A stretch of 64,000 bases of DNA. It comes from an uncultured Candidatus Saccharibacteria bacterium (GTDB lineage: Bacteria > Patescibacteriota > Minisyncoccia > Phycocordibacterales > UBA6899). Location of the stretch: NCBI GenBank assembly GCA_964515375.1, contig CAZERF010000001.1:45777-109776 (forward strand). Reading direction: 5' to 3'. Within the stretch, counting starts at the first letter, position 1, and every line of letters begins with the position of its first letter. Of the stretch, positions 9,612 through 58,743 are shown piece by piece. A program made the position numbers and the translations under genes. The notes under the pieces are model-generated. The model was not told where the DNA came from, did not search any database, and saw nothing but the letters and a program-made list of their open reading frames with translations.

Positions 9612-9647
9612 AAAAGGTTCTTGTGCAAACAAGAACCTTTTGTTTTG
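9612..9647 (+). terminator. Rho-independent terminator downstream of the glutaredoxin-like gene
   Basis: Hairpin AAGGTTCTTG-tgcaaa-CAAGAACCTT followed by TTGTTTTG. Confidence 0.6.
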
Positions 9648-9656
9648 TACTACATC

Positions 9657-9729
9657 GGTACGGCGGTGATGGTGGTTCCTTTGAGGAATCGAACCATGAT
9701 GAGATGTGAATGTTATTTTTGCTCCCGTA
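9657..9729 (+). repeat. Direct repeat copy 1 (73 bp), followed by a degenerate tRNA-like sequence up to ~9783
   Basis: It is identical to 9866-9938. The copy ends in GCTCCCGTA, the first 9 nt of the tRNA-Arg gene. The downstream 9730-9783 retains the GCTCC-GTCCTGA anticodon-arm-like and GGGAGCC acceptor-like segments but is otherwise diverged. Confidence 0.8.
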
Positions 9730-9865
9730 TGAAGTGGATAGTGGAGCTCCGTCCTGAGGTGAGGTGCGGCGTTGGGAGCCCATTCTGATGGGAGCCGCAC
9801 CGCAAGACCTTTTGAGATATTTTGTGAACAATGTGATGCAAAATATCCAAAAGGTGTACTGCGCC

Positions 9866-9938
9866 GGTACGGCGGTGATGGTGGTTCCTTTGAGGAATCG
9901 AACCATGATGAGATGTGAATGTTATTTTTGCTCCCGTA
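9866..9938 (+). repeat. Direct repeat copy 2 (73 bp), overlapping the 5' end of tRNA-Arg
   Basis: Exact copy of 9657-9729. Confidence 0.8.
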
Positions 9939-10001
9939 GTTCAATGGATAGAACAGCTCCGTCCTAAGGAGTTGATGGTGGTTCGATTCCTCCCGGGAGC
10001 A
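9930..10001 (+). tRNA. tRNA-Arg (anticodon CCT)
   Basis: Hand-folded. The acceptor stem is GCTCCCG/CGGGAGC. The D arm is GTTC-AATGGATA-GAAC. The anticodon stem is GCTCC/GGAGT with loop GTCCTAA. The T arm GGTGG-TTCGATT-CCTCC has one U-U mismatch. No CCA is encoded. Confidence 0.65.
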
Positions 10002-11515
10002 CAAAACAAGACTTCTGACGAAGTCAACGAGCGCGGCGAAGCCGCGCGAGAAAAAGAAAAAGGAGAAATACGCCGTCGCTCCGCGACGAAATGGCTGGGC
10101 GAGGACACGGAAAAGTGGGCGGCTTTGTCACGAACTGCATGGTTCGTTCCAATTTTTTGGACGAAGTCGGCAATTTCGGAGAAATTGTCAGACGAGGACA
10201 AAAAAGTGGCTTGTTTCGTATCTTTTACCCACTCCCGCAATGGTTCGATCCAAGTATTTCCCCGACGTTCACAATCTTTCTTTTTCTCGTTCAAAGTTGC
10301 GAGAGAGCGCATGGTAGCATCCTTCTTTTTCAGATAAATCTCTTTGGGTATGTCTCCATCCAAGTATGTTGAAACGAGTTTGTCCATGCGCTCCTCGTCC
10401 GCTTTGATTTTTTCGGAAAGATTGCGAACCTCGCTCCCTGAAACGGAAGTAGCTTCTTGCTCCCATGTCTCAACTTGCTCCAACATCCAATCGGTATAGC
10501 GATCAGGGAGCGAGATTGTTTGAAGCCGTACTTGCAACTGCTCTGCGAGGTTTCGCTCTTGCACGTACCCTTGCGAGCAAGTGCCGTGCTTTTTGGTACA
10601 GCGATAGTAGCGATAGATACCACCATTGCCTTTGGCGTGTTGCGCCGTGAACATGCCACCGCACTCCCCACAGCGAAACAAGCCAAGAAACGGAAAGTCA
10701 TGCCTGTTCCTTCGCTTCGGCGCACGCGCCTTGCTCGCAAGAACTTTTTGCACGGCTTCAAACAATGTCGGTGAAATAATTGGTTCAAATGTGCCATCAA
10801 ACCATTCACCATTGTGGCGAACAAAACCGAGATATGCTCGATTGCTCAAAAGGTGCCTGACGGCACATTTGGCAAGTGGCTTTCCTTTCGAACTGGTAAC
10901 GCCTAAATCCGCCAAAAACTGCGACAAACTAACAAGACCATGCGTGCCTTTGGCATATTCCTCAAAAGCGCAAGCAACAATCTTTGAATTAGTCGGATGA
11001 GGTTCGATGTTTCTCGTTTTCTGATTGTTCACATACCCAAACGGCGCTTTGGTGAGCCATTCGCCACGGCGCAGTTTTTGGCGGATGCCTCTTTTCACAT
11101 TCTGTACCAAATTGTCCGAGTAGTATTTAGATTGCCCAAAAGCCACTTGCAACATAAAGAGCCCTTGCGGAGTGGGTTCAAACCAAAAGGTCGGAAAGCG
11201 CAAAGACACAATACGCTCGGTATCCACCGCATAGATGACGCGGCCTCCATCAATACTATTTCTAGCCAGACGGTCGGGGTGCCATGCGAGTATCCCCGAA
11301 GCTTCTCCCGTTTCAATGCACGTCATCATCTCATTAAAAATAGGACGACCGGGTGTCTTTGCGCTTTTCGACTCTTGAAACTCCGACAGAATTTCAAGAT
11401 TTTCTTTACGTGCAAATTCATGTAGTTCAAACAACTGCGCTTCTATACTCATGACTTGTTTATCGTCATCTTCGGTGCTTTTTCGAGCGTAAAGAAAATA
11501 TTTTGGTTTGATCAT
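9941..11515 (-). CDS. Large serine recombinase (resolvase/invertase N-terminal domain + recombinase domain + zinc ribbon)
   Basis: The N-terminus YARKSTEDDDKQ carries the catalytic Ser in the resolvase motif. DRLARN and a recombinase domain follow. The zinc ribbon is CGECGG...YYRC. The C-terminal ~60 codons of the ORF are encoded by IR1-left and end inside the tRNA-Arg gene. The true stop may therefore differ. Confidence 0.85.
   Translation of the reverse strand: MIKPKYFLYARKSTEDDDKQVMSIEAQLFELHEFARKENLEILSEFQESKSAKTPGRPIFNEMMTCIETGEASGILAWHPDRLARNSIDGGRVIYAVDTERIVSLRFPTFWFEPTPQGLFMLQVAFGQSKYYSDNLVQNVKRGIRQKLRRGEWLTKAPFGYVNNQKTRNIEPHPTNSKIVACAFEEYAKGTHGLVSLSQFLADLGVTSSKGKPLAKCAVRHLLSNRAYLGFVRHNGEWFDGTFEPIISPTLFEAVQKVLASKARAPKRRNRHDFPFLGLFRCGECGGMFTAQHAKGNGGIYRYYRCTKKHGTCSQGYVQERNLAEQLQVRLQTISLPDRYTDWMLEQVETWEQEATSVSGSEVRNLSEKIKADEERMDKLVSTYLDGDIPKEIYLKKKDATMRSLATLNEKKKDCERRGNTWIEPLREWVKDTKQATFLSSSDNFSEIADFVQKIGTNHAVRDKAAHFSVSSPSHFVAERRRISPFSFSRAASPRSLTSSEVLFCAPGRNRTTINSLGRSCSIH
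9999..10129 (+). repeat. Inverted repeat IR1, left copy (131 bp); it starts inside the 3' end of tRNA-Arg
   Basis: Its reverse complement is identical to 11567-11697 (checked base by base at both ends). Confidence 0.85.
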
Positions 11516-11566: not shown

Positions 11567-11697
11567 GACAAAGCCGCCCACTTTTCCGTGTCCTCGCCCA
11601 GCCATTTCGTCGCGGAGCGACGGCGTATTTCTCCTTTTTCTTTTTCTCGCGCGGCTTCGCCGCGCTCGTTGACTTCGTCAGAAGTCTTGTTTTGTGC
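11567..11697 (+). repeat. Inverted repeat IR1, right copy
   Basis: Reverse complement of 9999-10129. Confidence 0.85.
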
Positions 11698-11935
11698 AGA
11701 AATACTGACCTTTGCTCGAACCCATTTCGAGAAAGGACAATGATCGTGCCGCGCGGAGCGCGTGGTGATGCGAACGCGAAGCGTACGCATTCGGAAATGT
11801 CTGCGCGCCTCGCTGCCTCGCCAGCTCGGCTCCCAAAACCAAAGAAATATCCTTACAATCATTTTTTCGGTGGAGGGGTGTGGGGAGGAGCCGACAGAAA
11901 AAGGAAAGGATATTTCTTTGGTTTGGGATCGCCGC
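11695..11935 (+). repeat. Inverted repeat IR2, left copy (241 bp), abutting IR1-right
   Basis: Its reverse complement matches 13643-13884 with a single mismatch. Confidence 0.85.
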
Positions 11936-12028
11936 AATGAGTTCTTAAAAATCATTTCCCCACCATTACCCTAGTATATTATACTATAATAGTCGTGTAT
12001 AATGTAATAGTTGGGTATAATTGTGGAT

Positions 12029-13199: not shown

Positions 13200-13642
13200 A
13201 AACGTCCGTCTCGCTATCCCCGCGGCAAGCCGACGGGGCATTACGCGGGCGGAATCGGGCGTTTTTGCTAGTTAAGGAATCCCCTCCGGTGATACTTTGT
13301 TTAATGTCGCATTCATCCTCGAGGCAAGCCCACGAGGCATTCTGCGACGTTCTAGTAAAAGACATTCGAGTGTCACGAAAAAGATTGGTTTGTATAGCAG
13401 GTTTTTGAAATCGTAATACACTCAACCGAAGCCACTAAGCTCACACACGGAAGCACCGCAGCAGCTCGCGCGAGCGGAGCGAGCGAGCTGTGCGGAGGTG
13501 CTGGAGTGTAGTGAGCGAACGTTAGAATCACCACGCAGGTTCGCTACGGGAGAGCGCCTCGCACGCCGCGAGTACGGAGAAAAGCGAAGTGGAAGACTCT
13601 CAAATAAAATGGGAACTGAAACAAAGCTTTTTGGAGGACAAA

Positions 13643-13884
13643 GCGGCGATCCCAAAACAAAGAAATATCCTTTCCTTTTTCTGTCGGCTCCTCCCCACAC
13701 CCCTCCACCGAAAAAATGATTGTAAGGATATTTCTTTGGTTTTGGGAGCCGAGCTGGCGAGGCAGCGAGGCGCGCAGACATTTCCGAATGCGTACGCTTC
13801 GCGTTCGCATCACCACGCGCTCCGCGCGGCACGATCATTGTCCTTTCTCGAAATGGGTTCGAGCAAAGGTCAGTATTTCTGCAC
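13643..13884 (+). repeat. Inverted repeat IR2, right copy
   Basis: Reverse complement of 11695-11935. Confidence 0.85.
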
Positions 13885-14320: not shown

Positions 14321-14505
14321 GGCACCACAATAGGCTCAGTTGGTGAGCAAAGTCTGCTTCTGAAAGCAGACACCAGGTTTGCTTTTTGGACAAGGTGTCC
14401 GCCACCGCGGACGCCAGCCACCACTCGTCTTCTTCGCCTTGCTGCGAAGTCGATCACCAATAGAGCGCATGCCTTTCGAGCGACGGGTCACCAGTTCGAC
14501 CCTGG
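14321..14505 (+). repeat. Scrambled tRNA-Phe-derived sequence: D-arm copy + 110-nt insert with three hairpins + copy of the tRNA 3' two-thirds (14451-14505)
   Basis: TAGGCTCAGTTGGTGAGC matches the Phe D arm with one inserted G. 14451-14505 (TAGAGCGCATGCCTTTCGAGCGACGGGTCACCAGTTCGACCCTGGTCCTCGGCAC) matches the tRNA-Phe 3' portion except in the anticodon arm. No 5' acceptor strand is present. Confidence 0.7.
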
Positions 14506-14512
14506 TCCTCGG

Positions 14513-14541
14513 CACTGTCAAATCAAAACCGCCCATGAATG
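14513..14541. terminator. Bidirectional rho-independent terminator
   Basis: Perfect palindrome AAAACCGCCCAT-GA-ATGGGCGGTTTT, lying between the tRNA cluster and the convergent Hsp20 gene. Confidence 0.65.
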
Positions 14542-18492: not shown

Positions 18493-21400
18493 ATGAACTC
18501 CGTATACCCATCTTATAAACGTCCATTCTACCTCATGCTTCGCCCGGTCTTCGTGTGGATCATGACCTTTTCTTTGCTACTCCAAACGAGTGCTGTTCTT
18601 CCGCTTGTCGCGGATGCGAACGTACTTGTGAATGTGTCACATTCGGACGGCACAACATCGACCTACGATCTGAAGGAAACCGAGGACGACATCATTGTTT
18701 CGTACTCCATGGGGGAAACGGATGGATCGGGCGCTCCGACTCTCGATGCGCTCTCCGGCCTGCTTGGCCTTTTGGATTCTTCCCTTACGGAGGTGAAGGC
18801 GGAAACGTCCTGCACGGGGAACGGAACTGCGACGGCAAGTGCGAGCGTGACGGATACAGTCACGATCGAAGGCGAGACGGTTGTTGCGACAGCGAGCGCG
18901 CAATCGACGGTGACCTGTTCTGACGGCGAAACAACCCCCGTCAACACTCCTCCCTCCGTGACGCTTCTTGGCGGAACCCCGATGTCCGTGACGCTTGGTA
19001 CATCCTTTGTCGATCCAGGTGCGAACGCCACCGACGCGGAGGATTGTGTCGGACTCACACAGAGCGCGTGTAATACGGCGTTGTCCTTGACGGCGACGGG
19101 TGTCGTGAACACGAATACTCTTGGAACCTACACGATCACCTACACTGCACGCGATTCGAGTGGAGCATTGGCCGTTCCTGTCACTCGTACGGTTATTGTG
19201 ATCGCTCCGTCAACGACAGAGTGTCGTGCTCCGAGTGATATTATGCTTGCGATCGATCGTTCGGGAAGTATGAATGATGATGGGACAAATCCTGATCAAC
19301 CGATGACCTTTGCGAAGGATGCGGCAAAGAACTTTATTGATAGTCTCTCTGCAACAGATGATCGTGTTGGAGTGGTGTCTTTTAGCACTCTCGCGCGACT
19401 CGATGTGTCTTTGACGAATGATTTCCCTCAAGCAAAATCGGCGCTCACCGGACTCATCGCGGAGGGGTGGACAAATATTGCTGAAGCGCTTCTTTTCTCC
19501 TCGAACGACCTTACTGCGAACGGACGAACCAACGCTCGTCAGATCATTATTTTGCTCTCCGACGGAAGACCGGAACCTGACACGAACGCTGGCACCGTTG
19601 CCGCGATCCAGAACGAAGGGGTATGTCATCTACACGATCGGGCTCGGTTCTGGAATTTCTGCTCCGCTTATGCAGGAGATCGCCACGAGTCCCGCGCACT
19701 ACTTCTTCGCGGCATCCGGTACCGACCTCGACGCCATCTATCAATCCATCTTGAGTGTTGAATGTGCACTTCCGAAAGGTTCCGTTTCGGGCCACAAGTA
19801 TCATGATGTTGACGCAAACGGTTCCTTTGGAGACGGCGACACTGTCGTATCGGGATGGGGGATCACCCTTACTCCGAACTCGAGCACTCTTGGCTCTCCT
19901 CGTACGGTGACCACCGACTCTTCCGGCGCGTATACATTCACTGACGTTCAAGCCGGAGACTATACATTGTGTGAGGCGTCGCGAAGCGGATGGACGCAGG
20001 TGGCACCGACCGCGAATAACGGTTGTTACCTTGTCTCTGTTGTCGACAACGTGGATCTGACCGGAAAGAATTTTTACAACAAAGAGCAGGTGACTCCGCC
20101 CGTCAACACTCCTCCCTCCATCACGCTTCTTGGTGCGAACCCGCTCTCGCTGACTGTTGGTGCATCATTCACCGATCCGGGTGCGAACGCTACCGACGCG
20201 GAGGATTGTGTCGGACTCACACAGAGCGCGTGCAATACGGCGTTGTCCTTGACGGCGACGGGTGTGGTTAATACCGGTTCAATCGGCACTTATACTGTTA
20301 CCTATACCGCTCGTGACTCACAGGGTCTTCAGGCGATTCCGGTGACTCGCACGGTAAATGTGATCGCGCTTCCTCCTCCCGACAACACTCCTCCGGTGAT
20401 CACCGTACTTGGGAACAACCCGCTTTTGGTTCGCATCGGTACTATCTTCACCGACCCGGGTGCGACCGCTGCTGATGCTGAAGATGGCAACATTACCGAC
20501 GATATTGTGAAGACCGGCACCGTGAACACGGCGCAGGTGGGGAACTATACGATCCGCTACAACGTCACTGACTCCGACGGGGCAGCGGCAACGGAGAAGA
20601 CCCGCACGGTCACCGTGTTCTCCGCATGTTCCGACGGTCTCGACAACGATGGCGACGAAACGATCGACTTGAATGATGAAGGATGCACTGATCCGAACGA
20701 CGACAGCGAGAACGAGAAGCCGGTCATTGAACTCATTGGCGAGACTCCCATGTCCGTGACCCTTGGTGCAACCTTTACCGATCCGGGCGCCAACGCGACC
20801 GATACGGAAGATTGTATCGGGCTCACACAGAGTGCGTGCAACACCGCACTTCAATTGACAGCGACGGGTGTTGTGAACACGAATACTCTTGGAACCTACA
20901 CGATCACCTACACGGCACGCGATTCGGAAGGTCTTGAGGCGACTCCGGTCACGCGTACTGTGAACGTGGTCTCCACACCTCCGCCCGCCAATACACGCCC
21001 CGTTATTACGCTCCTTGGCGCGGACCCGCTTTTGGTTCGCATCGGTACAACTTTTGCTGATCCGGGTGCGAACGCCACCGATGCAGAGGATTGTGTCGGA
21101 CTCACACAGAGCGCGTGCAACACCGCACTTCAATTGACAGCGACGGGCACCGTGAACATCGCGCAAGTGGGGAACTATACGATCACCTACACGGCGAAGG
21201 ATTCTCGGGGACTCGAAGCGACTCCGGTCACGCGTACGGTCACCGTGTTCTCCGCATGTTCCGACGGCGTCGACAATGACGGCGATGAAACGATCGACTT
21301 GAATGATGAAGGATGCACTGATCCGAACGATGACAGTGAGAACGAGAAGCCGGTCATCACGTTGCTTGGAAATGTCGCCATGCAACTCATCTTGGGCACG

Positions 21401-23086
21401 ACCTTTACTGATCCGGGTGCGAACGCCACCGACGCGGAGGATTGTGTCGGACTCACACAAGCGGAATGCAACGAGATCCTTGACCTTACCGCAACAGGAA
21501 CGGTCAACACCACGCAGCTTGGCACTTACACTATTACGTACACCGCACGCGATTCGGAAGGCCTTCAGGCTGACCCTAAGACGCGCACCGTGAGTGTGAT
21601 TCAGCAGAGTATTCCGGGATGCACGAGCAACTGTGGTGGAGGTGAGACAAATACTCGCCCGGTGATCACCATGCTCGGCAACAACCCGATCTCTGTTCAA
21701 CAAAACACGACCTTTACCGATCCGGGTGCGACGGCGTGGGACTCGGAAGACGGAGATATCACCAGCAAGATCATTGTCTCGGGTACGGTCGACACTACTC
21801 GCCTCGGTTCCTACAACATCGCGTACAACGTGACGGATTCGAAGGGACTTCCCGCACAAGAGCGCACACGCACGGTCAACGTTGTTCCGTGTACAAGCAA
21901 CTGTGGTGGAGGTGGGGGCGGTGGTAGTGTGACCCTCTCGATTTACAACGAGCGCCTCGCGGTGACCGGCACGACAACTGTTGTTGTGACCTGGAATACC
22001 AACATCCCCGCGGATAGTCGCGTGGTCTACGGACTCAATTCTGTTACTTCGCCCGCGTCTGCCCCGTACTACGGATACCCTCTGACCACGGCCACATCGA
22101 CGACCTATACCACCACACACTCGATGACGATCACCGGAATTCCGTCCATGATCGCGACGTACTATCGACCTGTCTCGACGAACGGCGCACTTGTTGCGGT
22201 GGGGCGTGAGCTTACGCGCGCACCCGAGGTGCCGACCGTGATCGGCGGTTCGTGTGAATACTTGAAGGAATATCTCCGCATCGGGTACAACAACAACCCG
22301 ACCGAGGTCTTGAAGCTCCAGCTTTTCCTCAAGAACTTTGAAGGATTTGCCAACATCTCGACCAGCGGATTCTTTGACGAAGTGACTGATCGCAGTGTCC
22401 GCATCTTTCAGGATCGCTACGCGGCCGACATCTTGACCCCGTGGAACCTTCCCGGCAACACTGGCTATGTCTACTATACGACCAAGAAGAAGATCAACGA
22501 GATCTATTGTCAGCGCGAGTTCCCGCTCACCCCGGCACAGTTGGCCGAGATCGCGGAGTTCCGTGAATTGATCCGTCGCATCGGCGCTCCGGTCTCGGGC
22601 GGTGAAACGGTTACGGTCCCGACCTCAACCGGCGGCACGGCGGTGGTCACTGTTCCCGTCGTTGGTCGCAATGACACACAGTCTTCGACGCAAGGTGCGG
22701 TCGCGGGGGCGGCAACCGTCTCCAATGTTCCCGGTGCGGCAACTTCCACTGCGACAGGGACACAAGCATCGAGTGGTCGCAACGGCATCGCGCTTGCCGA
22801 CCTCCTTGCTACTTCTCCTAGTGTCGGACGGGAACTTCAAAATGGTGAAGCCGCATACGACACCGGGGTGGCCACTTCCGTCTCGGGTGACCCGAGCGCG
22901 CTCTTGAAGCAGAACGCCATTCAGGCGGCGATCGGAGCAATCTCCGACGCGACCCACATCTCGGAAAAGGTTTTGCTCGCAGGACTCCTCTTCCTGATCA
23001 TCCTCATCATCGTTGCGGTCGTGATCGTGTGGAGAATGATCGCACGTCGCAAGCAAAATGAGATGAAACTCCCGAAGCAACTCTAA
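18493..23086 (+). CDS. Giant cell-surface protein (signal peptide, repeated Ig-like DUF5011-type domains, vWA domain, Cys/Asp-rich Ca-binding-like linkers, peptidoglycan-binding domain, C-terminal TM anchor), interrupted by a +1 frameshift near 19615-19625
   Basis: Track ORFs 18493-19761 and 19418-23086 are contiguous parts of one reading frame. The vWA domain starts in the first ORF (MIDAS DRSGSM, LSDG) and continues in the second (GYVIYTIGLG...YFFAASGTDLDAIYQSI). Removing one G from the GGGG run at ~19617-19620 restores AIQNEGYVIYTIGLG. Confidence 0.7.
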
Positions 23087-25137: not shown

Positions 25138-25320
25138 TTCATTATACGCCTACCCGATCGCTAAAGAAAAAACGGCCCCGGGGGGGTGGAACCCTGTGAG
25201 AAGTGTGGAGTGTTACACTTGAAGGTTGAATGTACCTTGCCGTTGCTCGAAAATTTTCCAGCCCCGGACTGGCGATGCAGACGGCTCCTTTCGTAACGCT
25301 CTATCTTCACCAAAGCGAAA

Positions 25321-25342
25321 GGAAGTGGACTGCTCCACTTCC
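25321..25342. terminator. Hairpin (9-bp perfect stem), possibly a bidirectional terminator
   Basis: GGAAGTGGA-ctgc-TCCACTTCC with T-rich flanks on both strands. Confidence 0.4.
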
Positions 25343-25358
25343 TTTACGCTTCACGCTT

Positions 25359-25430
25359 TGTGACCCCACGGGGAGATCGACCCTTACAGAGGGTCAGTAC
25401 ACCTTTGCGATTTACTCAGAGCAAAGCTCC
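25359..25430 (-). repeat. Degenerate tRNA-like remnant sharing the 3' end CCCCGTGGGGTCAC with tRNA-Glu
   Basis: The minus-strand reading ...GGGTCGATCTCCCCGTGGGGTCAC parallels the tRNA-Glu T arm/acceptor GGGGTTCGATTCCCCGTGGGGTCAC. The upstream stem-loops are not a valid cloverleaf. A further fragment TTGGGGTCACA is at 25486-25496. Confidence 0.5.
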
Positions 25431-25540
25431 TCGTAAATATCGCAAAGCTTTCGATTTCCCGACGTGAGCAAAGCAGTTTGCTCACTTGGGGTCACAGACA
25501 AAAATGGCAATGCTTTCGCATTGCTCATGTTTTGTATCTG

Positions 25541-25612
25541 TGACCCCACGGGGAATCGAACCCCGATTTACGCCGTGAAAGGGCGCTGTCCTAACCGTTA
25601 GACGATAGGGCC
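25541..25612 (-). tRNA. tRNA-Glu (anticodon TTC)
   Basis: Hand-folded on the minus strand. The acceptor stem is GGCCCTA/TGGGGTC. The anticodon stem is GCGCC/GGCGT with loop CTTTCAC. The T arm is CGGGG-TTCGATT-CCCCG. Confidence 0.85.
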
Positions 25613-25727
25613 AAAATGATCGACAAGATCGCGCTTTTTGCGAGGTTTTGCCGATGTGTCAGATATTAGCATATTCACTGGAAAAATCTAGCGGGGTATG
25701 ATAGATTTCTACAGTATCATTCGCAAA

Positions 25728-25814
25728 GGAGATGTGGCTGAGTGGTTGAAGGCAGCAGTTTCGAAAACTGCCGTAGGGGAAACCCTACCAGAGGTTCGAA
25801 TCCTCTCATCTCCG
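25728..25814 (+). tRNA. tRNA-Ser (anticodon CGA), type II with long variable arm
   Basis: The acceptor stem is GGAGATG/CATCTCC. The anticodon stem is GCAGT/ACTGC with loop TTCGAAA. The variable arm is CGTAGGGGAAACCCTACC. The T arm is AGAGG-TTCGAAT-CCTCT. Confidence 0.85.
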
Positions 25815-25849
25815 CAATCGACCCAAGAGGAAGCAACGCGCTTCCGGTT

Positions 25850-26000
25850 GGTTTGTCGTTGCGCGAGATGAGAAAGTGCCCTGCGGCACTTTCGGAGAGG
25901 ATTCGAAACCGTTCTCCAGTATTTGTGAGGAGCTATGCTCCGAATAAATCGGAAACGGGTACTGCGGCTGTAAGCCGAGAAATTCCTCTCATCTTCGCCA
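25850..26000 (+). repeat. Degenerate tRNA-Ser-derived sequence (T-arm-like GGAGAGGATTCGAAACCGTTCTCC and 3'-end-like GAAATTCCTCTCATCTTCG)
   Basis: It shows partial identity to the tRNA-Ser T arm and 3' acceptor (GGTTCGAATCCTCTCATCTCCG). It overlaps spurious ORFs 25709-26023 and 25742-26038. Confidence 0.45.
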
Positions 26001-26119
26001 AGACAATTTATTATCGAAGTCAACCCATTTGTCTATGACGAATGTGCGACCCGAGTACTTAAAAAAAGCTCTTTGAGCGATCTTTTTTGGTATAATACTA
26101 TTAGACTACAAGCGCATTT

Positions 26120-30795: not shown

Positions 30796-32217
30796 TTACT
30801 GTTCGATGACCTTGAATGATTGCCTTATTCCTCCTCCGGTGAGGATGATCGTGCTACGAGAGAAATTGCTGAGAGTTGCGGTTTTTTCGGTCGTTCCCAA
30901 TGTTGTGGGGGTGAAGGCAATGGTGAATTCCTGCGAACTGCGCGGGGGAAGGTTGTATGTGCAGACGCCAACGCAGGCGAAGGGAGCCGGGATGATCAGT
31001 GTTCCCACGCCGGCATGGGTCACGAAGCTCGGGTTGTTGATACGAAGGGTGAGCTTTTCTGTTTTTCCGACTACAGTGGGAGGGAAGTCGAGTCGTTCAT
31101 TGATCGACAACAGCTGTCCCTCTCCGTTCACGAATCGCTCTGCGTCGCCGCCTCCCGAAAAGTTGACAGTGGCGATGCGTGTTCCGACACTTCCGGTCGG
31201 TGCAAAGCGGATAACAACCTCCTGTTCGTGATCGCGTCCGATGTTTGCATATCCGCACGAGACACACGAGAAGCCCATTCCCGCCTGCACTACCGCGGAT
31301 CCAGAGAGGAGTGTCCCTTCTGGTCCGACATTTTTGACTCGAAAGACTCCTTCAAGTGTGTCGCCAAGCTCGACTCCATAGAAAAAGAGTGTCGGGTTGG
31401 GGGAGACCGCAATGATGGGGGTCGGTGCGGAAGGAGTGCCGGACGGGGGAGTCACTCCGGTTCCGTTCCCGGGCACGGTCACATTTCCTCCCCCGGAGAA
31501 TCCTATGTCTGTTGTTTTCGACCCTTCGGTTGTGGGAGTGAAGGAAATCGTGACCGGATGTTCGGTTCCGGGGGTGATGTTGTTGTACGTGCATCCGGTG
31601 ACGCAGGTGAAGGAGGGGTCTCCCGCGAGTGTGACGCTTCCAGTGAGCTCTGATGATGCTCCGCCGGTGTTGGTGACCGTAACGGTAAGGGTCTTTGTTT
31701 CATTGACGGTCACTTCGTTGTAGTGAAGTGGGGAAGGCGAAACAGTGATGACAGGGATGGTTGCGGGGTCAGGGTTGGTGACCGATCCAACTACGCCGTC
31801 GATAACGTTTCCGAGGAGGTCGGTTACGTCATCAATGAACGAACCGGTGTCTCCCGAGATGCTCACGCTGACTGTGGCGAAGTAGGTGATCCCCCAGTCG
31901 CCGACACAGGTGAACTGCCATTCGTAGACCGCCGGGCCTGCCCATCCGGAAAGTTCTCCCGAGTCATAGGAGGTTCCCGAGGGAAGCGGTTGGTCTTTCC
32001 ACTCCCATGTCGTTCCGTTGTTCAAACGTGACCATGTGCAGGAGTTCACCCCGTCTGAGGTCATGGTGACGCGAAACTTATCCAATGAGTCAATGGAGTT
32101 GGACGAAGCCGTTGCGCTGATCGACCCCGCAAGGGCGGCAAAGGGGAGCGACGCTCCAAAAATAAGAGTAATAAAAAAAGTTGAGATGTGGGATGAAATT
32201 CTCTTCATGAGAGCCAT
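30796..32217 (-). CDS. Secreted protein with three repeated ASH/choice-of-anchor-D-like beta-sandwich domains
   Basis: A signal peptide is followed by three ~100-aa repeats with the pattern V.V.P..L.F..V..G.T......V.N.G...L.GS....G..F.C..C...I.....E..V.I.F.PT..G. Confidence 0.65.
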   Translation of the reverse strand: MALMKRISSHISTFFITLIFGASLPFAALAGSISATASSNSIDSLDKFRVTMTSDGVNSCTWSRLNNGTTWEWKDQPLPSGTSYDSGELSGWAGPAVYEWQFTCVGDWGITYFATVSVSISGDTGSFIDDVTDLLGNVIDGVVGSVTNPDPATIPVITVSPSPLHYNEVTVNETKTLTVTVTNTGGASSELTGSVTLAGDPSFTCVTGCTYNNITPGTEHPVTISFTPTTEGSKTTDIGFSGGGNVTVPGNGTGVTPPSGTPSAPTPIIAVSPNPTLFFYGVELGDTLEGVFRVKNVGPEGTLLSGSAVVQAGMGFSCVSCGYANIGRDHEQEVVIRFAPTGSVGTRIATVNFSGGGDAERFVNGEGQLLSINERLDFPPTVVGKTEKLTLRINNPSFVTHAGVGTLIIPAPFACVGVCTYNLPPRSSQEFTIAFTPTTLGTTEKTATLSNFSRSTIILTGGGIRQSFKVIEQ

Positions 32218-32579
32218 TATGCATAAAAAAACAATTCTGTCAAGAGTTTTTCCTGCGAATATAAGGCCATGTTGAGGGGTCTTGCACTCTGAAGGATCCT
32301 TTCATTGCGTGGACGGTACACCCCGACGGTTTCGCAAAGCCGAAACATCGGCGGGGTCTTCGAATCCTCCGCGCGGGCAAGCAAGTTGCCTGTTTGGCCG
32401 CCTGTTATTTGCTTGGTCACAAGTTACTAAGCAAATGCGGAGGCGGAGCTCCTTATTTGCTAAGTACTTTCGACCCCGCCTCGTATTGTTCCGCGCCCAG
32501 GCAAAACAGGGCGCTCACAATATACTCCGGCTCACAAAAGCTAAAACTCCCATAAGGGGGAGTTTTTTTTACGCTTTTG

Positions 32580-32653
32580 TGCACCCTGGAGGATTCGAAC
32601 CTCCGACCCCTGCAATGTGAATGCAATGCTCTAACCAACTGAGCTAAGGGTGC
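32580..32653 (-). tRNA. tRNA-Val (anticodon CAC)
   Basis: Minus-strand fold. The acceptor stem is GCACCCT/AGGGTGC. The anticodon stem is TTGCA/TGCAG with loop TTCACAT. The T arm is GGAGG-TTCGAAT-CCTCC. Confidence 0.85.
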
Positions 32654-32699
32654 AATAATGAGATACTAACATATCCCGGTCTTCCGCTCAATGGGGACT

Positions 32700-32898
32700 C
32701 ACCAAATGAAAACACGACACTTCTTTCGAAGTGCCGTGTTCATTGGTGGGCGATAAGGGGGATTCGGTCACAAGTCACTAAGCGGAATGCGGAGCAAAGC
32801 TCCTTATCCGCTAAGTGCTCGCGACCCCGACTCGGCCACGCCACTTGAGGACAAGTGTCGGCTTCGCGGCCTCCGTCTTTCGAATCCCTTATCATCCT
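32700..32898 (+). repeat. Tandem repeat unit 1 (199 bp) carrying tRNA-Val(GAC) 3'-end fragments in both orientations, a terminator-like hairpin and a small conserved stem-loop element
   Basis: Unit 1 (32700-32898) and unit 2 (32899-33097) are identical as far as can be checked by eye. Each contains TTCATTGGTGGGCGATAAGGGGGATTCG (direct copy of the tRNA 3' end) and TTTCGAATCCCTTATCATCCTCACCA (inverted copy). Confidence 0.85.
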
Positions 32899-33097
32899 CA
32901 CCAAACGAAAACACGACACTTCTTTCGAAGTGCCGTGTTCATTGGTGGGCGATAAGGGGGATTCGGTCACAAGTCACTAAGCGGAATGCGGAGCAAAGCT
33001 CCTTATCCGCTAAGTGCTCGCGACCCCGACTCGGCCACGCCACTTGAGGACAAGTGTCGGCTTCGCGGCCTCCGTCTTTCGAATCCCTTATCATCCT
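32899..33097 (+). repeat. Tandem repeat unit 2 (199 bp)
   Basis: See unit 1. A third, partial unit (33098-33141) runs directly into the genuine tRNA-Val(GAC). Confidence 0.85.
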
Positions 33098-33141
33098 CAC
33101 CAAACGAAAACACGACACTTCTTTCGAAGTGCCGTGTTCAT

Positions 33142-33218
33142 TGGTGGGCGATAAGGGATTCGAACCCCTGACCTACCGCACGTCAAGCGGTCGCTCTAGC
33201 CAACTGAGCTAATCGCCC
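33142..33218 (-). tRNA. tRNA-Val (anticodon GAC)
   Basis: Minus-strand fold. The acceptor stem is GGGCGAT/ATCGCCC. The anticodon stem is ACCGC/GCGGT with loop TTGACGT. The T arm is AGGGG-TTCGAAT-CCCTT. CCA is encoded. A hairpin plus T-run terminator sits immediately downstream (33096-33134). Confidence 0.9.
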
Positions 33219-33378
33219 AAAAGCATTACTGCTTGGGATGAGGAAATACTAGCAAAACTCGATGAAAACAACAAGTGCACAAGACGGCTATTTTGTTGCC
33301 GGGAGCATTGACCAGATGGGTATTTTTGTGTTACAATAGAATAAGGTAGTTTGTACAACCTTGAATAAGGAGAGATTC

Positions 33379-33927
33379 GTGAGTCATTTCGACCCCCATG
33401 GTTTTGGTGCTCCGGAGGTTTGTCGGGAGATCATCATTCCTGACTCGTATGAGCCCACACTGCGCGTTCAGCAGTTTTTTGACGGCCTGCGTGAGGCGGA
33501 GCGTCAGGGTGAGGCTAAATACTCCTTGGCCTATGAGGACCTCGGAGGGCCTCCTCATGTCACTTTCGCTACGGCGAACAAAGAGATCACTCCGGGAGTG
33601 TACACTCTTGAACTTGTTCCACTCTTGAAGACGATGAGTACCAAGGCGGTACTCGAGTATCTTCGCTCGAGACGTGCGGCACTTCTCGGAGTGCATGGGT
33701 TGATTCTTCTCATTGAGGAGGGTGTCCAATTCTCGGGAGAGATTGCTTCGTTTGCCCCAAGGCAGAAGAAGCTCAGTGCAGCAAGCGGTCCGAATCCTTC
33801 CCAAAAGGAATCCCTGGCTGCGCCGACTCTGTTTCATCGCGATGGGCTCTATTTTATGAGTACTGCGCGCGCCGCACAGTCCTTGTGGACACGGCAACAT
33901 ATGCTCGCCGTCTTCGTGCGGCAGTAG
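33379..33927 (+). CDS. Hypothetical protein
   Basis: A GTG start lies 6 nt after AAGGAGA. The track uses the TTG at 33361. No family was recognised. A terminator follows. Confidence 0.5.
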   Translation: MSHFDPHGFGAPEVCREIIIPDSYEPTLRVQQFFDGLREAERQGEAKYSLAYEDLGGPPHVTFATANKEITPGVYTLELVPLLKTMSTKAVLEYLRSRRAALLGVHGLILLIEEGVQFSGEIASFAPRQKKLSAASGPNPSQKESLAAPTLFHRDGLYFMSTARAAQSLWTRQHMLAVFVRQ

Positions 33928-53679: not shown

Positions 53680-54027
53680 ATGAATAAAACAAAAAACATC
53701 ATTTACGCAGTGGCAGCACTCTTTCCTTTTGTTGCTCTCGCCACTTCACCATCAACATTTCGAGAGCTCGCTGAGCTTATCGTTGGACTAGTGAAGGGTT
53801 TCGTCGCGATCCTCTTTGCTTCGTTCTCTGTGGCAATGGTGTATGGTGTTGTTGTGTATCTCATGAACGCCGACAATGAGCAAAAGCGTTCGCAGATCAA
53901 GGGGTATTTGTTGTGGGGGATTATCGGTATTACCGTTGCGTTTGGCCTTTGGGGTATCTTGCAGATCATGTGTAACACGCTTGGTTGGGGTCTCTGCGGC
54001 ATTCCGATCATTGAACCCCCCGAATGA
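53680..54027 (+). CDS. VirB2/TrbC-pilin-like paralog 4
   Basis: The loop is MNADNEQKRSQIKG and TM helix 2 is LLWGIIGITVAFGLWGIL. Confidence 0.7.
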   Translation: MNKTKNIIYAVAALFPFVALATSPSTFRELAELIVGLVKGFVAILFASFSVAMVYGVVVYLMNADNEQKRSQIKGYLLWGIIGITVAFGLWGILQIMCNTLGWGLCGIPIIEPPE

Positions 54028-54046
54028 TTACTCACTGTACCACTTC

Positions 54047-54415
54047 ATGATATTTATGAAATCTTTTTTCTTGCTATTATCTCTTTTTGTGCCTTCGTTT
54101 GCCTCTGCCGGAGTGACGGACGTCGAAGATATCTTTTCTTTTCAGGAGCTTCTCTTTCGTCTTCTTATCGCCCTCAATTACTTTCTCTGGGTACTAGCGA
54201 TCGTTGTGTTCATGTGGGGGGTGGTACGTTTTATTGCAAATGCGGACGATGCCGAAGAGAGGGAGAAGGGGAGACACCTTATCATTTGGGGTATCATTTC
54301 TTTTGTTGTATTGCTTTCCTTGTGGGCATTCGTTTCGTTTATCCTTGTGGACACCTTCGGCATTTTTTCGGTTGAAGTTCCTTATGTGAACAAAGACGGA
54401 TTTGTTGTTGAATGA
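54047..54415 (+). CDS. VirB2/TrbC-pilin-like paralog 5
   Basis: The loop is ANADDAEEREKGRH and TM helix 2 is LIIWGIISFVVLLSLWAFV. Confidence 0.65.
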   Translation: MIFMKSFFLLLSLFVPSFASAGVTDVEDIFSFQELLFRLLIALNYFLWVLAIVVFMWGVVRFIANADDAEEREKGRHLIIWGIISFVVLLSLWAFVSFILVDTFGIFSVEVPYVNKDGFVVE

Positions 54416-54522
54416 CCTCAGCTCACTCTCGGCTCACAACACTTTTTCGGGCTTCTTGTGCTGCACCAGCTTTATCTCCGAGCTTTTAAGCTTACCTCAA
54501 ATGAAGGTGCACATGTTTTACG

Positions 54523-54655
54523 TCATCGTTCGGTCGAAGAGCGCATGCGGACATGGCTCTTCTTCCTCACTCGACGTAGTAACCCGTTGTCCACGTCGTC
54601 GTTCGGTCGAAGAGCGCATGCGGACATGGCTCTTCTTCCTCACTCGACGTAGTAA
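54523..54655 (+). repeat. Two tandem ~60-bp repeats, each forming a GAAGAGC...GCTCTTC hairpin
   Basis: TCGTTCGGTCGAAGAGCGCATGCGGACATGGCTCTTCTTCCTCACTCGACGTAGTAA occurs twice, about 72 bp apart, in the paralog 5/6 intergenic region. Confidence 0.7.
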
Positions 54656-54769
54656 TCCACACCCACCCCTTGCGGTGCATTGCTACTTGTTATCTTTAGG
54701 AGTATCATTAGGGAGTAGTTTGGTAAGTGTTCGTTTTAATATTATTAATTATCCAATTTACTTCGGTAT

Positions 54770-58482: not shown

Positions 58483-58743
58483 AATAGCTGCATGGTACCC
58501 GATTGCGCGCAAAAATGGAACAGGGAATCGTCGTTTGAGGTGAGGTGAGGTGCAGGAGGGTGTGTTTCCCGTTCCGGAATCTCTTTGCTCATTCTGTGAA
58601 TTTTCGCGATCACCACAAGAGTACTTCCATTTTTCTAAGCACGCAGACGTGCAAAGAAAAATTGGTCGCCGCGTATCCTACATGGAAGCACGCAGGTGCT
58701 TCCTCGGGTGCACAAACAAAAAACCGCAGAGCGGTTTTTCTTG

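What the first reader, a model, noticed from the sequence alone, without database searches (positions are those of the whole stretch)
32380..33220. 199-bp tandem repeats built from tRNA-Val(GAC) 3'-end fragments in both orientations, with a covarying stem-loop element
Two full units and one partial unit precede tRNA-Val(GAC). Each unit contains a direct copy of the tRNA 3' end (TGGTGGGCGATAAGGGGGATTCG), an inverted, diverged copy (TTTCGAATCCCTTATCATCCTCACCA), a 12-bp-stem terminator-like hairpin, and a small nested stem-loop (GCGGA-A-TGC-GGAGC-AAA-GCTCC-TTA-TCCGC). The nested stem-loop reappears upstream at ~32420-32460 with compensatory changes (GCAAA...TTTGC), which suggests a structured RNA or protein-binding element. 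The pattern looks like repeated integration and excision at the tRNA 3' end, or a tRNA-derived MITE-like repeat family.
Basis: seen in the sequence. Interest (0 to 1): 0.6.

Follow-up and report, generated by a model that had tools for sequence, protein, structure and literature searches.

The report
RtT-like folded repeats behind tRNA genes
Two tandem copies of a 199-base, tightly folded non-coding cassette lie just after a valine tRNA gene, and the cassette belongs to an apparently undescribed family, laid out like E. coli's poorly understood RtT repeats, that follows more than twenty kinds of tRNA gene and the tmRNA gene in Parcubacteria-group bacteria.

Summary
There are 2.3 tandem units of 199 bp at 32698-33157. 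All features read on the minus strand, so the repeats lie downstream of tRNA-Val(GAC), not before it. Each unit reads: copy of the tRNA 3' end from T-loop C56 to CCA (X), a terminator-like hairpin, an inverted complement of X (X'), and a 113-nt core.

The core is not local. An exact motif and a covariance model find it in about 30 Parcubacteria-group loci. In 41 of 43 assessable cases it lies 46-300 nt (one 773 nt) downstream of a co-oriented tRNA or tmRNA gene, and X and X' match the local tRNA where present. Covariation supports folding of the tRNA-sense strand (97% paired, 10 pairs changed on both sides, 0/500 shuffles).

A 100%-identical contig carries one unit instead of two. Both extra X copies share a derived CC insertion, so the array is a duplication of an existing unit, not two integrations.

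No Rfam family matches. The layout is that of E. coli RtT (tyrT repeats): same plan, no sequence or model match. The best reading is an RtT-like cassette inserted at tRNA 3' ends. Whether it acts as RNA or as a single-stranded DNA recombination substrate is unresolved.

The parts
33142..33218 (-). tRNA-Val(GAC) with encoded CCA. Its last 21 nt (33142-33162, from T-loop C56 to CCA) are sequence X, which is repeated in each unit.
   Evidence: ARAGORN; Rfam tRNA 68.8 bits; regex mapping
33109..33138 (-). Hairpin 1 (13-bp stem, GAAA loop) followed by the tail UUUUCGUUU. Terminator-like. X + hairpin + X' form one long imperfect palindrome.
   Evidence: not flagged by the simple terminator scan
33078..33104 (-). 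X' copy 1: the inverted, diverged complement of the tRNA 3' end (TTTGGTGAGGATGATAAGGGATTCGAA).
32965..33077 (-). Conserved core, copy 1 (113 nt). It comprises a 3-bp helix, a G-A-rich internal loop, arm 1, CGGGG, and arm 2 (ACUUAGC...GCUUAGUGACUUGUGACC).
32943..32965 (-). X copy 2: the tRNA 3' end with a derived CC insertion (23 nt). It closes unit 1 and opens unit 2.
32910..32939 (-). Hairpin 2, identical to hairpin 1.
32879..32905 (-). X' copy 2.
32766..32878 (-). Conserved core, copy 2.
32744..32766 (-). X copy 3, with the same CC insertion as copy 2.
32711..32740 (-). Hairpin 3. It is followed by only the first 9 nt of X' (32698-32706), where the array ends.
   Evidence: (D7)
32579..32653 (-). 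tRNA-Val(CAC). By eye it is preceded by its own promoter-like TTGAGC-17-TAGTAT, and it is followed by a terminator at 32543-32566.
32415..32541 (-). Third, diverged cassette behind tRNA-Val(CAC). A short X' (GCTTTTGTG, 32533-32541) is complementary to the tRNA end plus trailer. It is followed by a 118-nt core (32415-32532).
   Evidence: covariance-model hit 66.5 bits
32283..32392 (-). Decayed second-type ('type D') module. It has a small hairpin, a T-arm mimic CGGAGGATTCGAAGA, a long hairpin, and then a diverged copy of the tRNA-Val(CAC) 3' end (GGATCCTTCAGAGTGCA).
   Evidence: comparison with L001, L002, L011 and L015

Best explanation
The 199-bp unit is one cassette of an RtT-like family. 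Read on the tRNA-coding strand, a cassette is: X (a copy of the local tRNA's last 21-23 nt, from T-loop C56 through CCA), a terminator-like hairpin, X' (the inverted complement of X), and a conserved ~110-nt core with two hairpin arms. The next X closes the cassette.

Shown:
- As a single strand of tRNA-sense polarity, X' pairs with X and the core forms a three-way junction whose helices covary.
- The same core lies co-oriented behind more than 20 tRNA species and behind tmRNA in Parcubacteria-group bacteria.
- In the T-loop-type cassettes, X and X' are tailored to the local tRNA. In other copies a shorter X' matches the tRNA end plus its trailer.
- Arrays of two units recur, and the copy number differs between two assemblies of this very strain.

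Inferred:
1. The cassette entered by recombination inside the tRNA's 3' end and brought its own replacement 3' end and terminator, so the tRNA stays intact. The outer X is the displaced original end.
2. The second unit here arose by unequal crossing-over or slippage between the 62-nt X+hairpin repeats.
3. The cassette acts as RNA. It would be made by read-through from the tRNA promoter and released by the enzymes that trim tRNA 3' ends at each X. This is what is reported for the 171-nt E. coli RtT RNA, which ends at the CCA of the next X copy. The invariant core would be the working part, binding an unknown partner.
For: - Anatomy and repeat.
- Fold: the sense unit folds at -81.4 kcal/mol (z = -6.8) against -65.3 for the antisense.
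- Family: 13 genome loci and 18 metagenome loci carry the exact arm-2 motif. Covariance model R1 gives 49 sense hits, of which 41 of 43 assessable have a same-strand tRNA or tmRNA 46-300 nt upstream, with one at 773 nt.
- No recurrent neighbouring protein.
- X and X' match the local tRNA. Of 61 tRNA genes in these loci, 28 have an inverted copy of at least 9 nt of their own 3' end downstream, against 1 of 61 upstream.
- Covariation: 97% of cells paired, 10 pairs with changes on both sides, 0/500 shuffles, and slid controls at 27-41% paired.
- Strand: the sense strand is more stable in 25 of 25 cores. In the variable arms it is more stable in 34 against 9.
- Duplication rather than re-integration: both extra X copies share a CC insertion. 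L020 shows the same pattern, two 176-nt units with identical diverged X.
- Copy-number polymorphism: L004 has 0 mismatches over 3,039 bp and one 199-bp unit fewer.
- RtT parallel: 178 bp x 3.1 after tyrV. Each unit has GGGGAAGGAU pairing with AUCCUUCCCC of the tRNA-end copy, and the annotated 171-nt RttR ends in CCACCA. E. coli genomes carry 1-10 units.
- Literature: rttR is encoded by one repeat unit of the tyrT operon (PMC3318445), and its mode of action is unknown (bioRxiv 10.1101/2024.07.17.603846).
Against: - A terminator-like hairpin with a U-run lies between the tRNA and the core in 15 of 19 family members, so transcription of the core would depend on read-through. E. coli RtT has no such hairpin.
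- No expression data exist for any member.
- Rfam RF00391 (RtT) does not hit these elements even at E <= 10, so homology with RtT is unproven.
- The X':X helix shows no excess of G-U over A-C mismatches (9 against 7). It could therefore be a product of DNA-level copying rather than an RNA helix under selection.
- In several loci X' also complements the trailer next to the tRNA-side copy (by eye). This favours the long X-hairpin-X' palindrome over the closing helix.
- Some copies lack a flush X (the 'A2' flanks), and two lie in an array after ftsZ with no tRNA.
- How X' comes to match each new tRNA is unexplained.
Confidence: 0.5

Rival explanations
1. A purely selfish, non-autonomous integrative mini-element that works as DNA. 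The free form is a unit-length circle or single strand. In it, X-hairpin-X' folds into a long hairpin whose stem reproduces the double-stranded 3' end of the tRNA gene. A recombinase encoded elsewhere exchanges strands between that stem and the gene, as XerCD does with the forked hairpin of CTXphi or IntI does with attC. The folded core would be a recognition or replication signal, not an RNA.
For: - The order X-loop-X'-cargo-X is what insertion of a hairpin attachment site predicts.
- X' complements X plus the trailer on the tRNA side (by eye), and the long hairpin is the predicted fold.
- CTXphi has two dif-like sites in opposite orientation about 90 nt apart that form a 150-nt forked hairpin (PMC3089051).
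- The direct repeat starts in the T-loop, a classic integrase crossover site (my own knowledge of Williams 2002, not checked here). Partial tRNA copies commonly mark integration of mobile elements (PMC9897764).
- Both tRNA and tmRNA genes are targets.
- A terminator inside the element would keep it silent and harmless.
- Relatives differ by presence or absence with clean 23-nt repeats: the type D module at Val(CAC) is in L001 and L002 but not in the window.
- A NUDIX gene is inserted in one module in L002.
- GCGAAGC, known as a very stable DNA mini-hairpin (my own knowledge), recurs in the arms.
Against: - No recombinase, Rep or transposase lies in or near any of about 30 loci.
- The only recombinase in this window is a large serine recombinase at another tRNA.
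- There are no hits in viral contigs.
- The clean presence/absence cases are equally explained by deletion between the direct repeats, and L001's 'empty' Val(GAC) site still keeps an X' remnant.
- About 35 core positions are invariant across distant lineages.
- The model does not explain how an element whose X must match one tRNA moves to another.
Confidence: 0.27
2. A cis-acting appendage of the tRNA gene. The hairpin and X' would serve termination, 3'-end processing or quality control of read-through pre-tRNA, because X' can pair with the tRNA's own 3' end. The core would be a protein-binding insulator.
For: - X' is specific to the adjacent tRNA and extends the terminator stem into the tRNA 3' end.
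- Many tRNA genes in one genome carry such an appendage. In this window they are Val x2, Glu, Ser and Lys.
- A terminator-like hairpin is present in 15 of 19 members.
Against: - Many tRNA genes in the same genomes lack it, for example Gly, Leu(TAG) and Cys here.
- It does not explain the outer copy of X, the tandem arrays, or the copies after ftsZ.
- Pairing of X' with the tRNA's 3' end would unfold the tRNA.
Confidence: 0.13
3. Leftover attachment sites of ordinary prophages or genomic islands that integrated into the tRNA and were later deleted. On this reading there is no element family of its own.
For: - Direct repeats of tRNA 3' ends are the usual scar of island integration (PMC9897764).
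- This window does have an island with a serine recombinase next to tRNA-Arg and a 55-nt partial copy of tRNA-Phe.
Against: - The same roughly 110-nt core, with covarying helices, sits behind more than 20 different tRNA species in many genomes.
- The cassette has no coding capacity.
- There are no viral matches.
- Random deletion scars would not share an invariant core or a tailored X'.
Confidence: 0.04
4. The two-copy array is an assembly artefact, and the true genome has one unit, or some other number.
For: A contig from another assembly, identical at all 3,039 aligned bases, has one unit. Short-read assemblers mishandle 199-bp tandem repeats.
Against: - The two units differ from the partial third by a SNP placed consistently in both assemblies.
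- Two-unit arrays recur in unrelated samples (L020; L012).
- E. coli RtT arrays vary from 1 to 10 units in complete genomes.
- The cassette itself is real in either case.
Confidence: 0.06

Closest known systems
E. coli RtT RNA / rttR: the 178-bp repeats of the tyrT-tyrV operon (Rfam RF00391)
   Same: - Tandem units of about 180-200 bp lie directly downstream of, and co-oriented with, a tRNA gene (178 bp x 3.1).
- Every unit ends with a copy of the tRNA's 3' end from the T-loop through CCA.
- Every unit also holds an inverted T-arm mimic (GGGGAAGGAU) that pairs with that copy and closes a branched fold (Rfam consensus).
- Copy number varies between strains, 1-10 per genome.
- Function is unknown (bioRxiv 10.1101/2024.07.17.603846).
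- By eye, the 11-mer GGATGAGAAGC of the RtT mimic recurs at the same place in the type D module of L001 and L002.
   Different: - There is no sequence or model match: RF00391 gives no hit at E <= 10, and the core is unrelated in sequence.
- Here a terminator-like hairpin separates the tRNA from the core, whereas RtT has none.
- Here X' can also pair with the acceptor part and with CCA.
- RtT was examined here only at the tyrT-tyrV locus of E. coli, whereas this family serves more than 20 tRNA species and tmRNA.
- The host phylum is different (Parcubacteria group).
Integrative elements that target tRNA and tmRNA genes (tyrosine-integrase islands and prophages)
   Same: - The insert is flanked by a direct repeat of the tRNA 3' end, and the gene is rebuilt by the element's own copy.
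- The crossover region is in the T-loop.
- Both tRNA and tmRNA genes are targets (PMC9897764).
   Different: - The insert is only 130-200 nt.
- It has no integrase or any other gene.
- It has an inverted copy of the target and a conserved folded core.
Folded single-strand attachment sites: the CTXphi attP(+) forked hairpin and integron attC
   Same: Two copies of a target-like site in opposite orientation, separated by a short spacer, can fold into a hairpin that mimics the duplex target (PMC3089051). Only one strand folds well.
   Different: - The target is a tRNA 3' end, not dif or attI.
- No Xer-type or IntI-type dependence is known.
- No phage or cassette gene is attached.
- A single-stranded DNA stage is purely hypothetical here.
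Structured intergenic repeats of bacteria (MITEs, REP/BIME, pneumococcal BOX)
   Same: They are short, non-coding, modular, strongly folding, multi-copy, and sometimes tandem.
   Different: - These copies are not dispersed; they lie almost only behind tRNA or tmRNA genes, in one orientation.
- The repeat of the target is 20-60 nt, not a 2-10 bp duplication.
- The flanks are tailored to each target.

Membership tests
RtT RNA (Rfam RF00391) | Lies directly downstream of, and co-oriented with, a tRNA gene | tested here: met
   tRNA-Val(GAC) is at 33142-33218(-) and the units are at 32698-33141(-). In E. coli the RtT units follow tyrV.
RtT RNA (Rfam RF00391) | Tandem units, each ending with a copy of the tRNA's 3' terminal segment including CCA | tested here: met
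   X copies lie at 32943-32965 and 32744-32766. E. coli units end in AATCCTTCCCCCACCACCA.
RtT RNA (Rfam RF00391) | Closing helix between an inverted T-arm mimic and the 3'-end copy | tested here: met
   Predicted fold. The X':X helices are 8-21 bp in 13 members. The Rfam consensus structure shows the same helix.
RtT RNA (Rfam RF00391) | Match to the family covariance model | tested here: not met
   No RF00391 hit at E <= 10 in 31900-33500 or 25150-26100, nor at the gathering score in 13 related loci. The model scores 134-138 bits on E. coli.
RtT RNA (Rfam RF00391) | A stable RNA processed out of the tRNA operon transcript | not testable with these tools
   No transcript data. In E. coli the annotated 171-nt RttR ends at the CCA of the X copy (PMC3318445).
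tRNA-targeting integrative element (island or prophage) | Direct repeat of the tRNA 3' end on both sides of the insert | tested here: met
tRNA-targeting integrative element (island or prophage) | Integrase or other recombinase gene inside the insert | tested here: not met
   The unit is 199 nt. No recurrent protein lies within 4 kb in about 30 loci.
MITE | Short target-site duplication (2-10 bp) and terminal inverted repeats shared with an autonomous IS | tested here: not met
   The duplication is 21-62 nt of the target. The 'inverted repeat' is target-derived and differs at each tRNA. No IS relative was seen, and this was not searched exhaustively.
MITE | Many dispersed copies in a genome | tested here: not met
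   In the 64-kb window the model finds cores only at 32415-33042, behind the two Val tRNAs. Elsewhere the copies follow tRNA or tmRNA genes.
Folded single-strand attachment site (CTXphi attP, integron attC) | Two inverted target-like sites with a short spacer that fold into a hairpin on one strand | tested here: met
   X-hairpin-X' folds into one long hairpin. The sense strand folds better.
Folded single-strand attachment site (CTXphi attP, integron attC) | A single-stranded DNA stage and recombination by Xer or IntI | not testable with these tools
   No data. No such gene is linked.
tRNA / tmRNA gene | Cloverleaf, or tRNA-like domain plus tag, recognised by ARAGORN or the Rfam tRNA clan | tested here: not met
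   The units are not called by ARAGORN or by Rfam.
Group I introns of Patescibacteria tRNA genes | Intron inside the anticodon loop (position 35/36) with a group I core | tested here: not met
   The element lies after the complete tRNA. There is no Rfam group I hit. The paper describes anticodon-loop introns only (PMC13011429).

The most novel reading that the evidence does not exclude
These cassettes, and E. coli RtT as a distant or degenerate relative, are a general and so far unrecognised class of self-propagating structured elements that copy the 3' end of a tRNA or tmRNA in both orientations. A unit-length, Y-shaped, about 77% base-paired single strand (RNA or DNA) would be the active form. 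It would use mimicry of the tRNA end either to be cut out by tRNA-processing enzymes or to recombine with the tRNA gene, without encoding any protein.
Probability: 0.2. Interest if true: 0.85.

Novelty: new variant of a known kind. Interest (0 to 1): 0.62.

Why it matters
E. coli's RtT repeats have been known for decades, yet their mode of action is still described as unknown, and they have been treated as a curiosity of one operon. This window shows the same building plan in a distant, genome-reduced lineage, and there it is a real family. It has a core with about 35 invariant positions and covarying helices, and it sits behind more than 20 tRNA species and tmRNA.

This turns a one-off into a class. 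It also supplies what was missing to study that class: an alignment, a covariance model, natural variation, and copy-number polymorphism.

It poses a concrete mechanistic puzzle, namely how an element without genes acquires both a direct and an inverted copy of each new tRNA's 3' end. The answer bears on tRNA-end processing, on recombination at tRNA genes, and on how much non-coding 'baggage' very small genomes tolerate.

There is a practical side too. Such cassettes produce partial tRNA copies and collapsible tandem repeats that can mislead tRNA annotation and the assembly of these genomes.

Tried and rejected
- Known RNA families. Rfam at E <= 10 on the region, and at gathering score on 13 related loci, gave only tRNA and tmRNA. 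No ribozyme, tmRNA-like, Y-RNA or group I model matched.
- Group I introns of Patescibacteria tRNAs. These are inserted in the anticodon loop, so they are not this element.
- Protein coding. The ORFs across the array (76 and 86 aa) were dismissed by my own reasoning: the 199-nt period shifts the reading frame from unit to unit, the invariant motifs carry stop codons in two frames, and substitutions are compensatory in stems.
- A linked protein. All-against-all comparison of ORFs within 4 kb of about 30 loci found only synteny between close relatives.
- Phage origin. Two pattern scans of viral contigs gave 0 hits.
- A guide-RNA reading (scaffold plus a 3' guide equal to the tRNA end, as for TnpB omega-RNA, Cas12k homing or IS110 bridge RNA). 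I considered it and set it aside because there is no nuclease or recombinase nearby, the sequence next to the core end is not constant across flank types, and the guide would also match the resident tRNA gene.
- G-U against A-C bias in the X':X helix as a test of RNA-level selection. The result was inconclusive, 9 against 7.
- Presence/absence among relatives as proof of mobility. This was weakened: L001's 'empty' site keeps an X' remnant, and the clean cases can be deletions between repeats.
- Literature. Searches for a prior description in Parcubacteria or the candidate phyla radiation found none.
Full report
**1. What is in the sequence**

Tandem Repeats Finder reports a 199-bp period, 2.3 copies and 99% matches at 32698-33157. 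The repeat finder agrees (D4 and D7). ARAGORN and Rfam place tRNA-Val(GAC) at 33142-33218 and tRNA-Val(CAC) at 32579-32653, both on the minus strand. The repeats therefore lie downstream of tRNA-Val(GAC) and upstream of tRNA-Val(CAC).

Read on the minus strand, the order of features is:
- tRNA-Val(GAC), ending in ...CGAATCCCTTATCGCCCACCA. I call this segment, from T-loop C56 to CCA, X.
- A hairpin with a 13-bp stem and a GAAA loop, followed by UUUUCGUUU.
- X' (TTTGGTGAGGATGATAAGGGATTCGAA), a diverged inverted complement of X.
- A 113-nt core.
- X again.
- Hairpin, X', core and X once more.
- A final hairpin and the first 9 nt of X'.

The 'third, covarying stem-loop' near 32420-32460 is part of a complete third core (32415-32532) behind tRNA-Val(CAC).

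**2. Is it more than chance, and which strand matters**

- The minus-strand unit folds into a three-way junction at -81.4 kcal/mol (z = -6.8). Its complement reaches only -65.3.
- A unit-length circle is 77% paired at -103.8 kcal/mol (z = -10.2). The antisense circle gives -81.1.

**3. The same strain with one unit**

The flanking hypothetical protein (33379-33924) has three homologues, and their contigs give syntenic loci.

- L004 (JGI 3300049811) is identical to the window at all 3,039 aligned bases. It lacks exactly one 199-bp unit (window 32708-32906) and has a 3-bp indel elsewhere.
- Both non-tRNA copies of X in the window carry a CC insertion that the tRNA's own X lacks.

The array therefore arose by duplication of an existing unit, through unequal crossing-over or slippage between the 62-nt X+hairpin repeats. 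It did not arise by two separate integrations. Alternatively, one of the two assemblies has miscounted the units.

**4. Relatives at about 80% protein identity**

- L002 has one diverged unit behind tRNA-Val(GAC). Arm 1 carries compensatory changes, arm 2 has a swapped tip, and the hairpin changes keep pairing through G-U.
- L001 has no core there, but it keeps its own terminator followed by a short X' remnant (TGGGCGA). That site looks like a deletion derivative rather than a virgin site.
- Behind tRNA-Val(CAC), L001 and L002 carry a second kind of module, which I call type D. It has a small hairpin, a T-arm mimic, a long hairpin, a small GUAA-type hairpin and then X. It is bounded by a clean 23-nt repeat of the tRNA end, and it is absent from the window. 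In L002 a NUDIX-like gene is inserted in its small hairpin.

**5. A family**

- The exact arm-2 motif ACTTAGC-N(12-42)-GCTTAGTNACTTGTGACC occurs in 13 loci of one-per-species genomes. These are labelled Campbellbacteria, Lloydbacteria, Paceibacteria, Parcubacteria-group and some 'Saccharibacteria'-labelled MAGs. It also occurs in 18 metagenome loci. There are none in viral contigs.
- Every motif hit with upstream sequence and a tRNA has a same-strand tRNA or tmRNA gene 105-145 nt before the motif, or a multiple of that in arrays. This covers 17 tRNA species plus tmRNA.
- A covariance model of the core (R1) finds 49 sense-strand copies in 300 kb. Of the 43 with enough upstream sequence, 41 have a co-oriented tRNA or tmRNA 46-300 nt upstream (one at 773 nt, across an island). 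This adds Lys, three Gly species and Leu(TAG).
- The two exceptions are in L021. There, cores and core fragments form an array directly after ftsZ, each followed by a different short repeat.
- No protein recurs near the element.
- Several tRNAs of one genome carry it, for example three in L008 and three in L005.

**6. Anatomy of the family**

The core reads R-G-N-C-G-S-A-G, then arm 1, then C-G-A-G-N'-C-G-G-G-G-U-C-G-C-G-A-G-Y-ACUUAGC, then arm 2 tip, then GCUUAGU-R-ACUUGUGACC.

On 22 members the proposed helices behave as follows:
- 97% of cells are paired.
- 10 of 26 pairs change on both sides. N:N' is C:G, A:U or G:C. Y:R is U:A in 13, C:G in 8 and U:G in 1.
- None of 500 shuffles reaches any of the measures.
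- Slid controls give 27-41% pairing.
- Caveat: I trimmed the variable arm interiors before alignment.

The tRNA-sense strand is the better folder in 25 of 25 cores. It is also better in the variable arms alone, 34 against 9 (p = 4e-4). The two invariant G-U pairs of the arm-2 base become A-U in variants.

The flanks come in two forms:
- 'A1', 13 of 25 members. X' ends in the complement of the local T-stem and T-loop plus AA, and X starts flush with the core at C56. The X':X helices are 8-21 bp, and the T-arm part is always kept.
- 'A2'. The core follows X-terminator-(small hairpin)-X', where X' complements the tRNA's last few bases plus its trailer. The direct X comes later, after a type D 3' part.

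Further points on the flanks:
- In several A1 loci, X' also complements the trailer of the tRNA-side copy (by eye). X-hairpin-X' is therefore one long palindrome.
- In 15 of 19 members the hairpin looks like an intrinsic terminator.
- Across 61 non-redundant tRNA or tmRNA genes in the fetched loci, 28 have an exact inverted copy of at least 9 nt of their own 3' end within 170 nt downstream. Only 1 has one upstream.
- In this window, tRNA-Glu(TTC), tRNA-Ser(CGA) and tRNA-Lys(CTT) also carry such appendages. Gly, Leu(TAG) and Cys do not.

**7. Closest known thing**

Rfam has no match. Literature searches found no description in these bacteria. The Patescibacteria tRNA introns are a different thing.

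The plan is, however, that of the E. coli tyrT-tyrV repeats:
- 178 bp x 3.1 lie right after tyrV.
- Each unit holds GGGGAAGGAU..., which pairs with ...AUCCUUCCCC of a copy of the tRNA-Tyr 3' end and leaves a CACCACCA tail. This is the consensus structure of Rfam RtT.
- The annotated 171-nt RttR RNA starts 7 nt after the tRNA and ends at that CCA.
- E. coli genomes hold 1-10 units, with a median of 3.

The window's element therefore works like RtT in layout, but it fails the model-match test. It also differs by the internal terminator-like hairpin, by the longer X', and by serving many tRNAs.

**8. Mechanism**

Shown:
- The anatomy.
- The single-strand fold with covariation.
- The strict linkage and orientation to tRNA or tmRNA genes.
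- X and X' tailored to the local tRNA.
- Recurrent tandem arrays (L020 with two 176-nt units; L012; L006).
- A copy-number difference within one strain.

Inferred, as the best reading (0.5):
- The cassette is an RtT-like cassette inserted in the tRNA's 3' end, bringing a replacement end and terminator.
- It is duplicated by unequal crossing-over.
- It acts as a read-through RNA bounded by tRNA-end mimics.
- The invariant core is the functional part.

Main rival (0.27): the cassette acts as DNA. The X-hairpin-X' palindrome would be a folded attachment site that mimics the duplex tRNA end, as in CTXphi (PMC3089051). This would explain the inverted copy and the internal terminator. It lacks any recombinase and any evidence of a single-stranded stage.

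Lesser rivals:
- A cis-acting termination or processing device (0.13).
- Scars of ordinary islands (0.04).
- An assembly artefact for the copy number (0.06).

Unexplained under every reading: how X' comes to match each new tRNA.

**9. Context**

The window is ordinary chromosome of a small-genome bacterium. Its genes include FtsZ, FtsA, HisRS, a class I tRNA synthetase, LepA, MurJ, GyrA, IF-2, S1 and thioredoxin reductase. The relatives that carry the element are labelled Parcubacteria-group. The taxon of the window itself is inferred from that, not shown.

**10. Verdict**

It is a new, much broader variant of the RtT kind of element. Interest is moderately high, because it generalises an old unsolved oddity and makes it testable.

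Noticed in passing
window 25356-25539 (-) and 25816-25999 (+): tRNA-Glu(TTC) and tRNA-Ser(CGA) each carry a 'type D' appendage. Its order is: terminator hairpin, X', small hairpin with a CUGC-type loop, T-arm mimic ...TCGAAAG, long hairpin with a GGAGC-UUU/UAU-GCUC tip, GTAC(T)G plus a GUAA-loop hairpin, and a diverged copy of the tRNA 3' end. L001 has the same layout at tRNA-Ser with very different stem sequences.
   Followed up: partly
window 58560-58742 (-): tRNA-Lys(CTT) is followed by a terminator, X' (TTTGTGCACCCG), a small hairpin, a T-arm mimic and another module (...AAAAATGGAAGTACTCTTGTGGTG). That module resembles the extra insert in the L008 core.
   Followed up: no
window 9941-11515 (-), 9999-10129 / 11567-11697, 11694-11950 / 13628-13884: A 524-aa large serine recombinase (Resolvase + Recombinase + Zn_ribbon_recom) abuts the 3' end of tRNA-Arg(CCT). 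It is bracketed by a perfect 131-nt inverted repeat. A second 257-nt inverted repeat (97%) brackets the next segment. This looks like an integrated or invertible element between tRNA-Arg and tRNA-Phe.
   Followed up: partly
window 9646-9729 / 9855-9938 and 14461-14515: An 84-nt leader plus the 5' start of tRNA-Arg(CCT) is duplicated 209 nt upstream, and the upstream copy continues as a decayed tRNA 5' half. The last 55 nt of tRNA-Phe are repeated 190 nt downstream (87%) before the terminator, with tRNA-Phe-like debris in between.
   Followed up: partly
L021 1-330 (-) and L014 7780-7960 (-): Cores and 3' core fragments form an array directly after the ftsZ stop codon, with no tRNA. Each is followed by a variant of TGTCCCTGCATTTCT. 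This shows the core can be flanked by repeats of a non-tRNA sequence.
   Followed up: partly
L002 5640-6090 (-): A 115-aa gene, NUDIX-like by my reading and not checked against Pfam, is inserted inside the small hairpin of the type D module behind tRNA-Val(CAC). The hairpin is duplicated on both sides of the gene, like a cassette site.
   Followed up: no
L001 8231-8305 (-) vs window 33142-33218 (-): tRNA-Val(GAC) has an encoded CCA where the cassette is present (window, L002) but not in L001, which lacks the core. In L024 and L030 it is the outer X copy that has CCA while the tRNA gene itself lacks it.
   Followed up: partly
L036 (E. coli NC_000913.3 1286709-1287236) vs L001 6930-6960 (-): The RtT T-arm mimic GGATGAGAAGC recurs as an identical 11-mer at the equivalent place in the type D module of L001 and L002. 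This hints at homology rather than mere analogy.
   Followed up: no
window 54520-54658: A 73-nt tandem duplication (97%) lies in an intergenic stretch downstream of a T4SS-pilin-like gene (53876-54415).
   Followed up: no
window 18968-21750: Internal 279-351-nt repeats lie inside a 1222-aa ORF (19418-23086). The overlapping upstream ORF (18493-19761) has VWA and bacterial Ig-like domains.
   Followed up: no
L001 116-910 (+): A LAGLIDADG_3 homing-endonuclease-like gene ends right at the start of tRNA-Ser(CGA). It is absent from the window.
   Followed up: no
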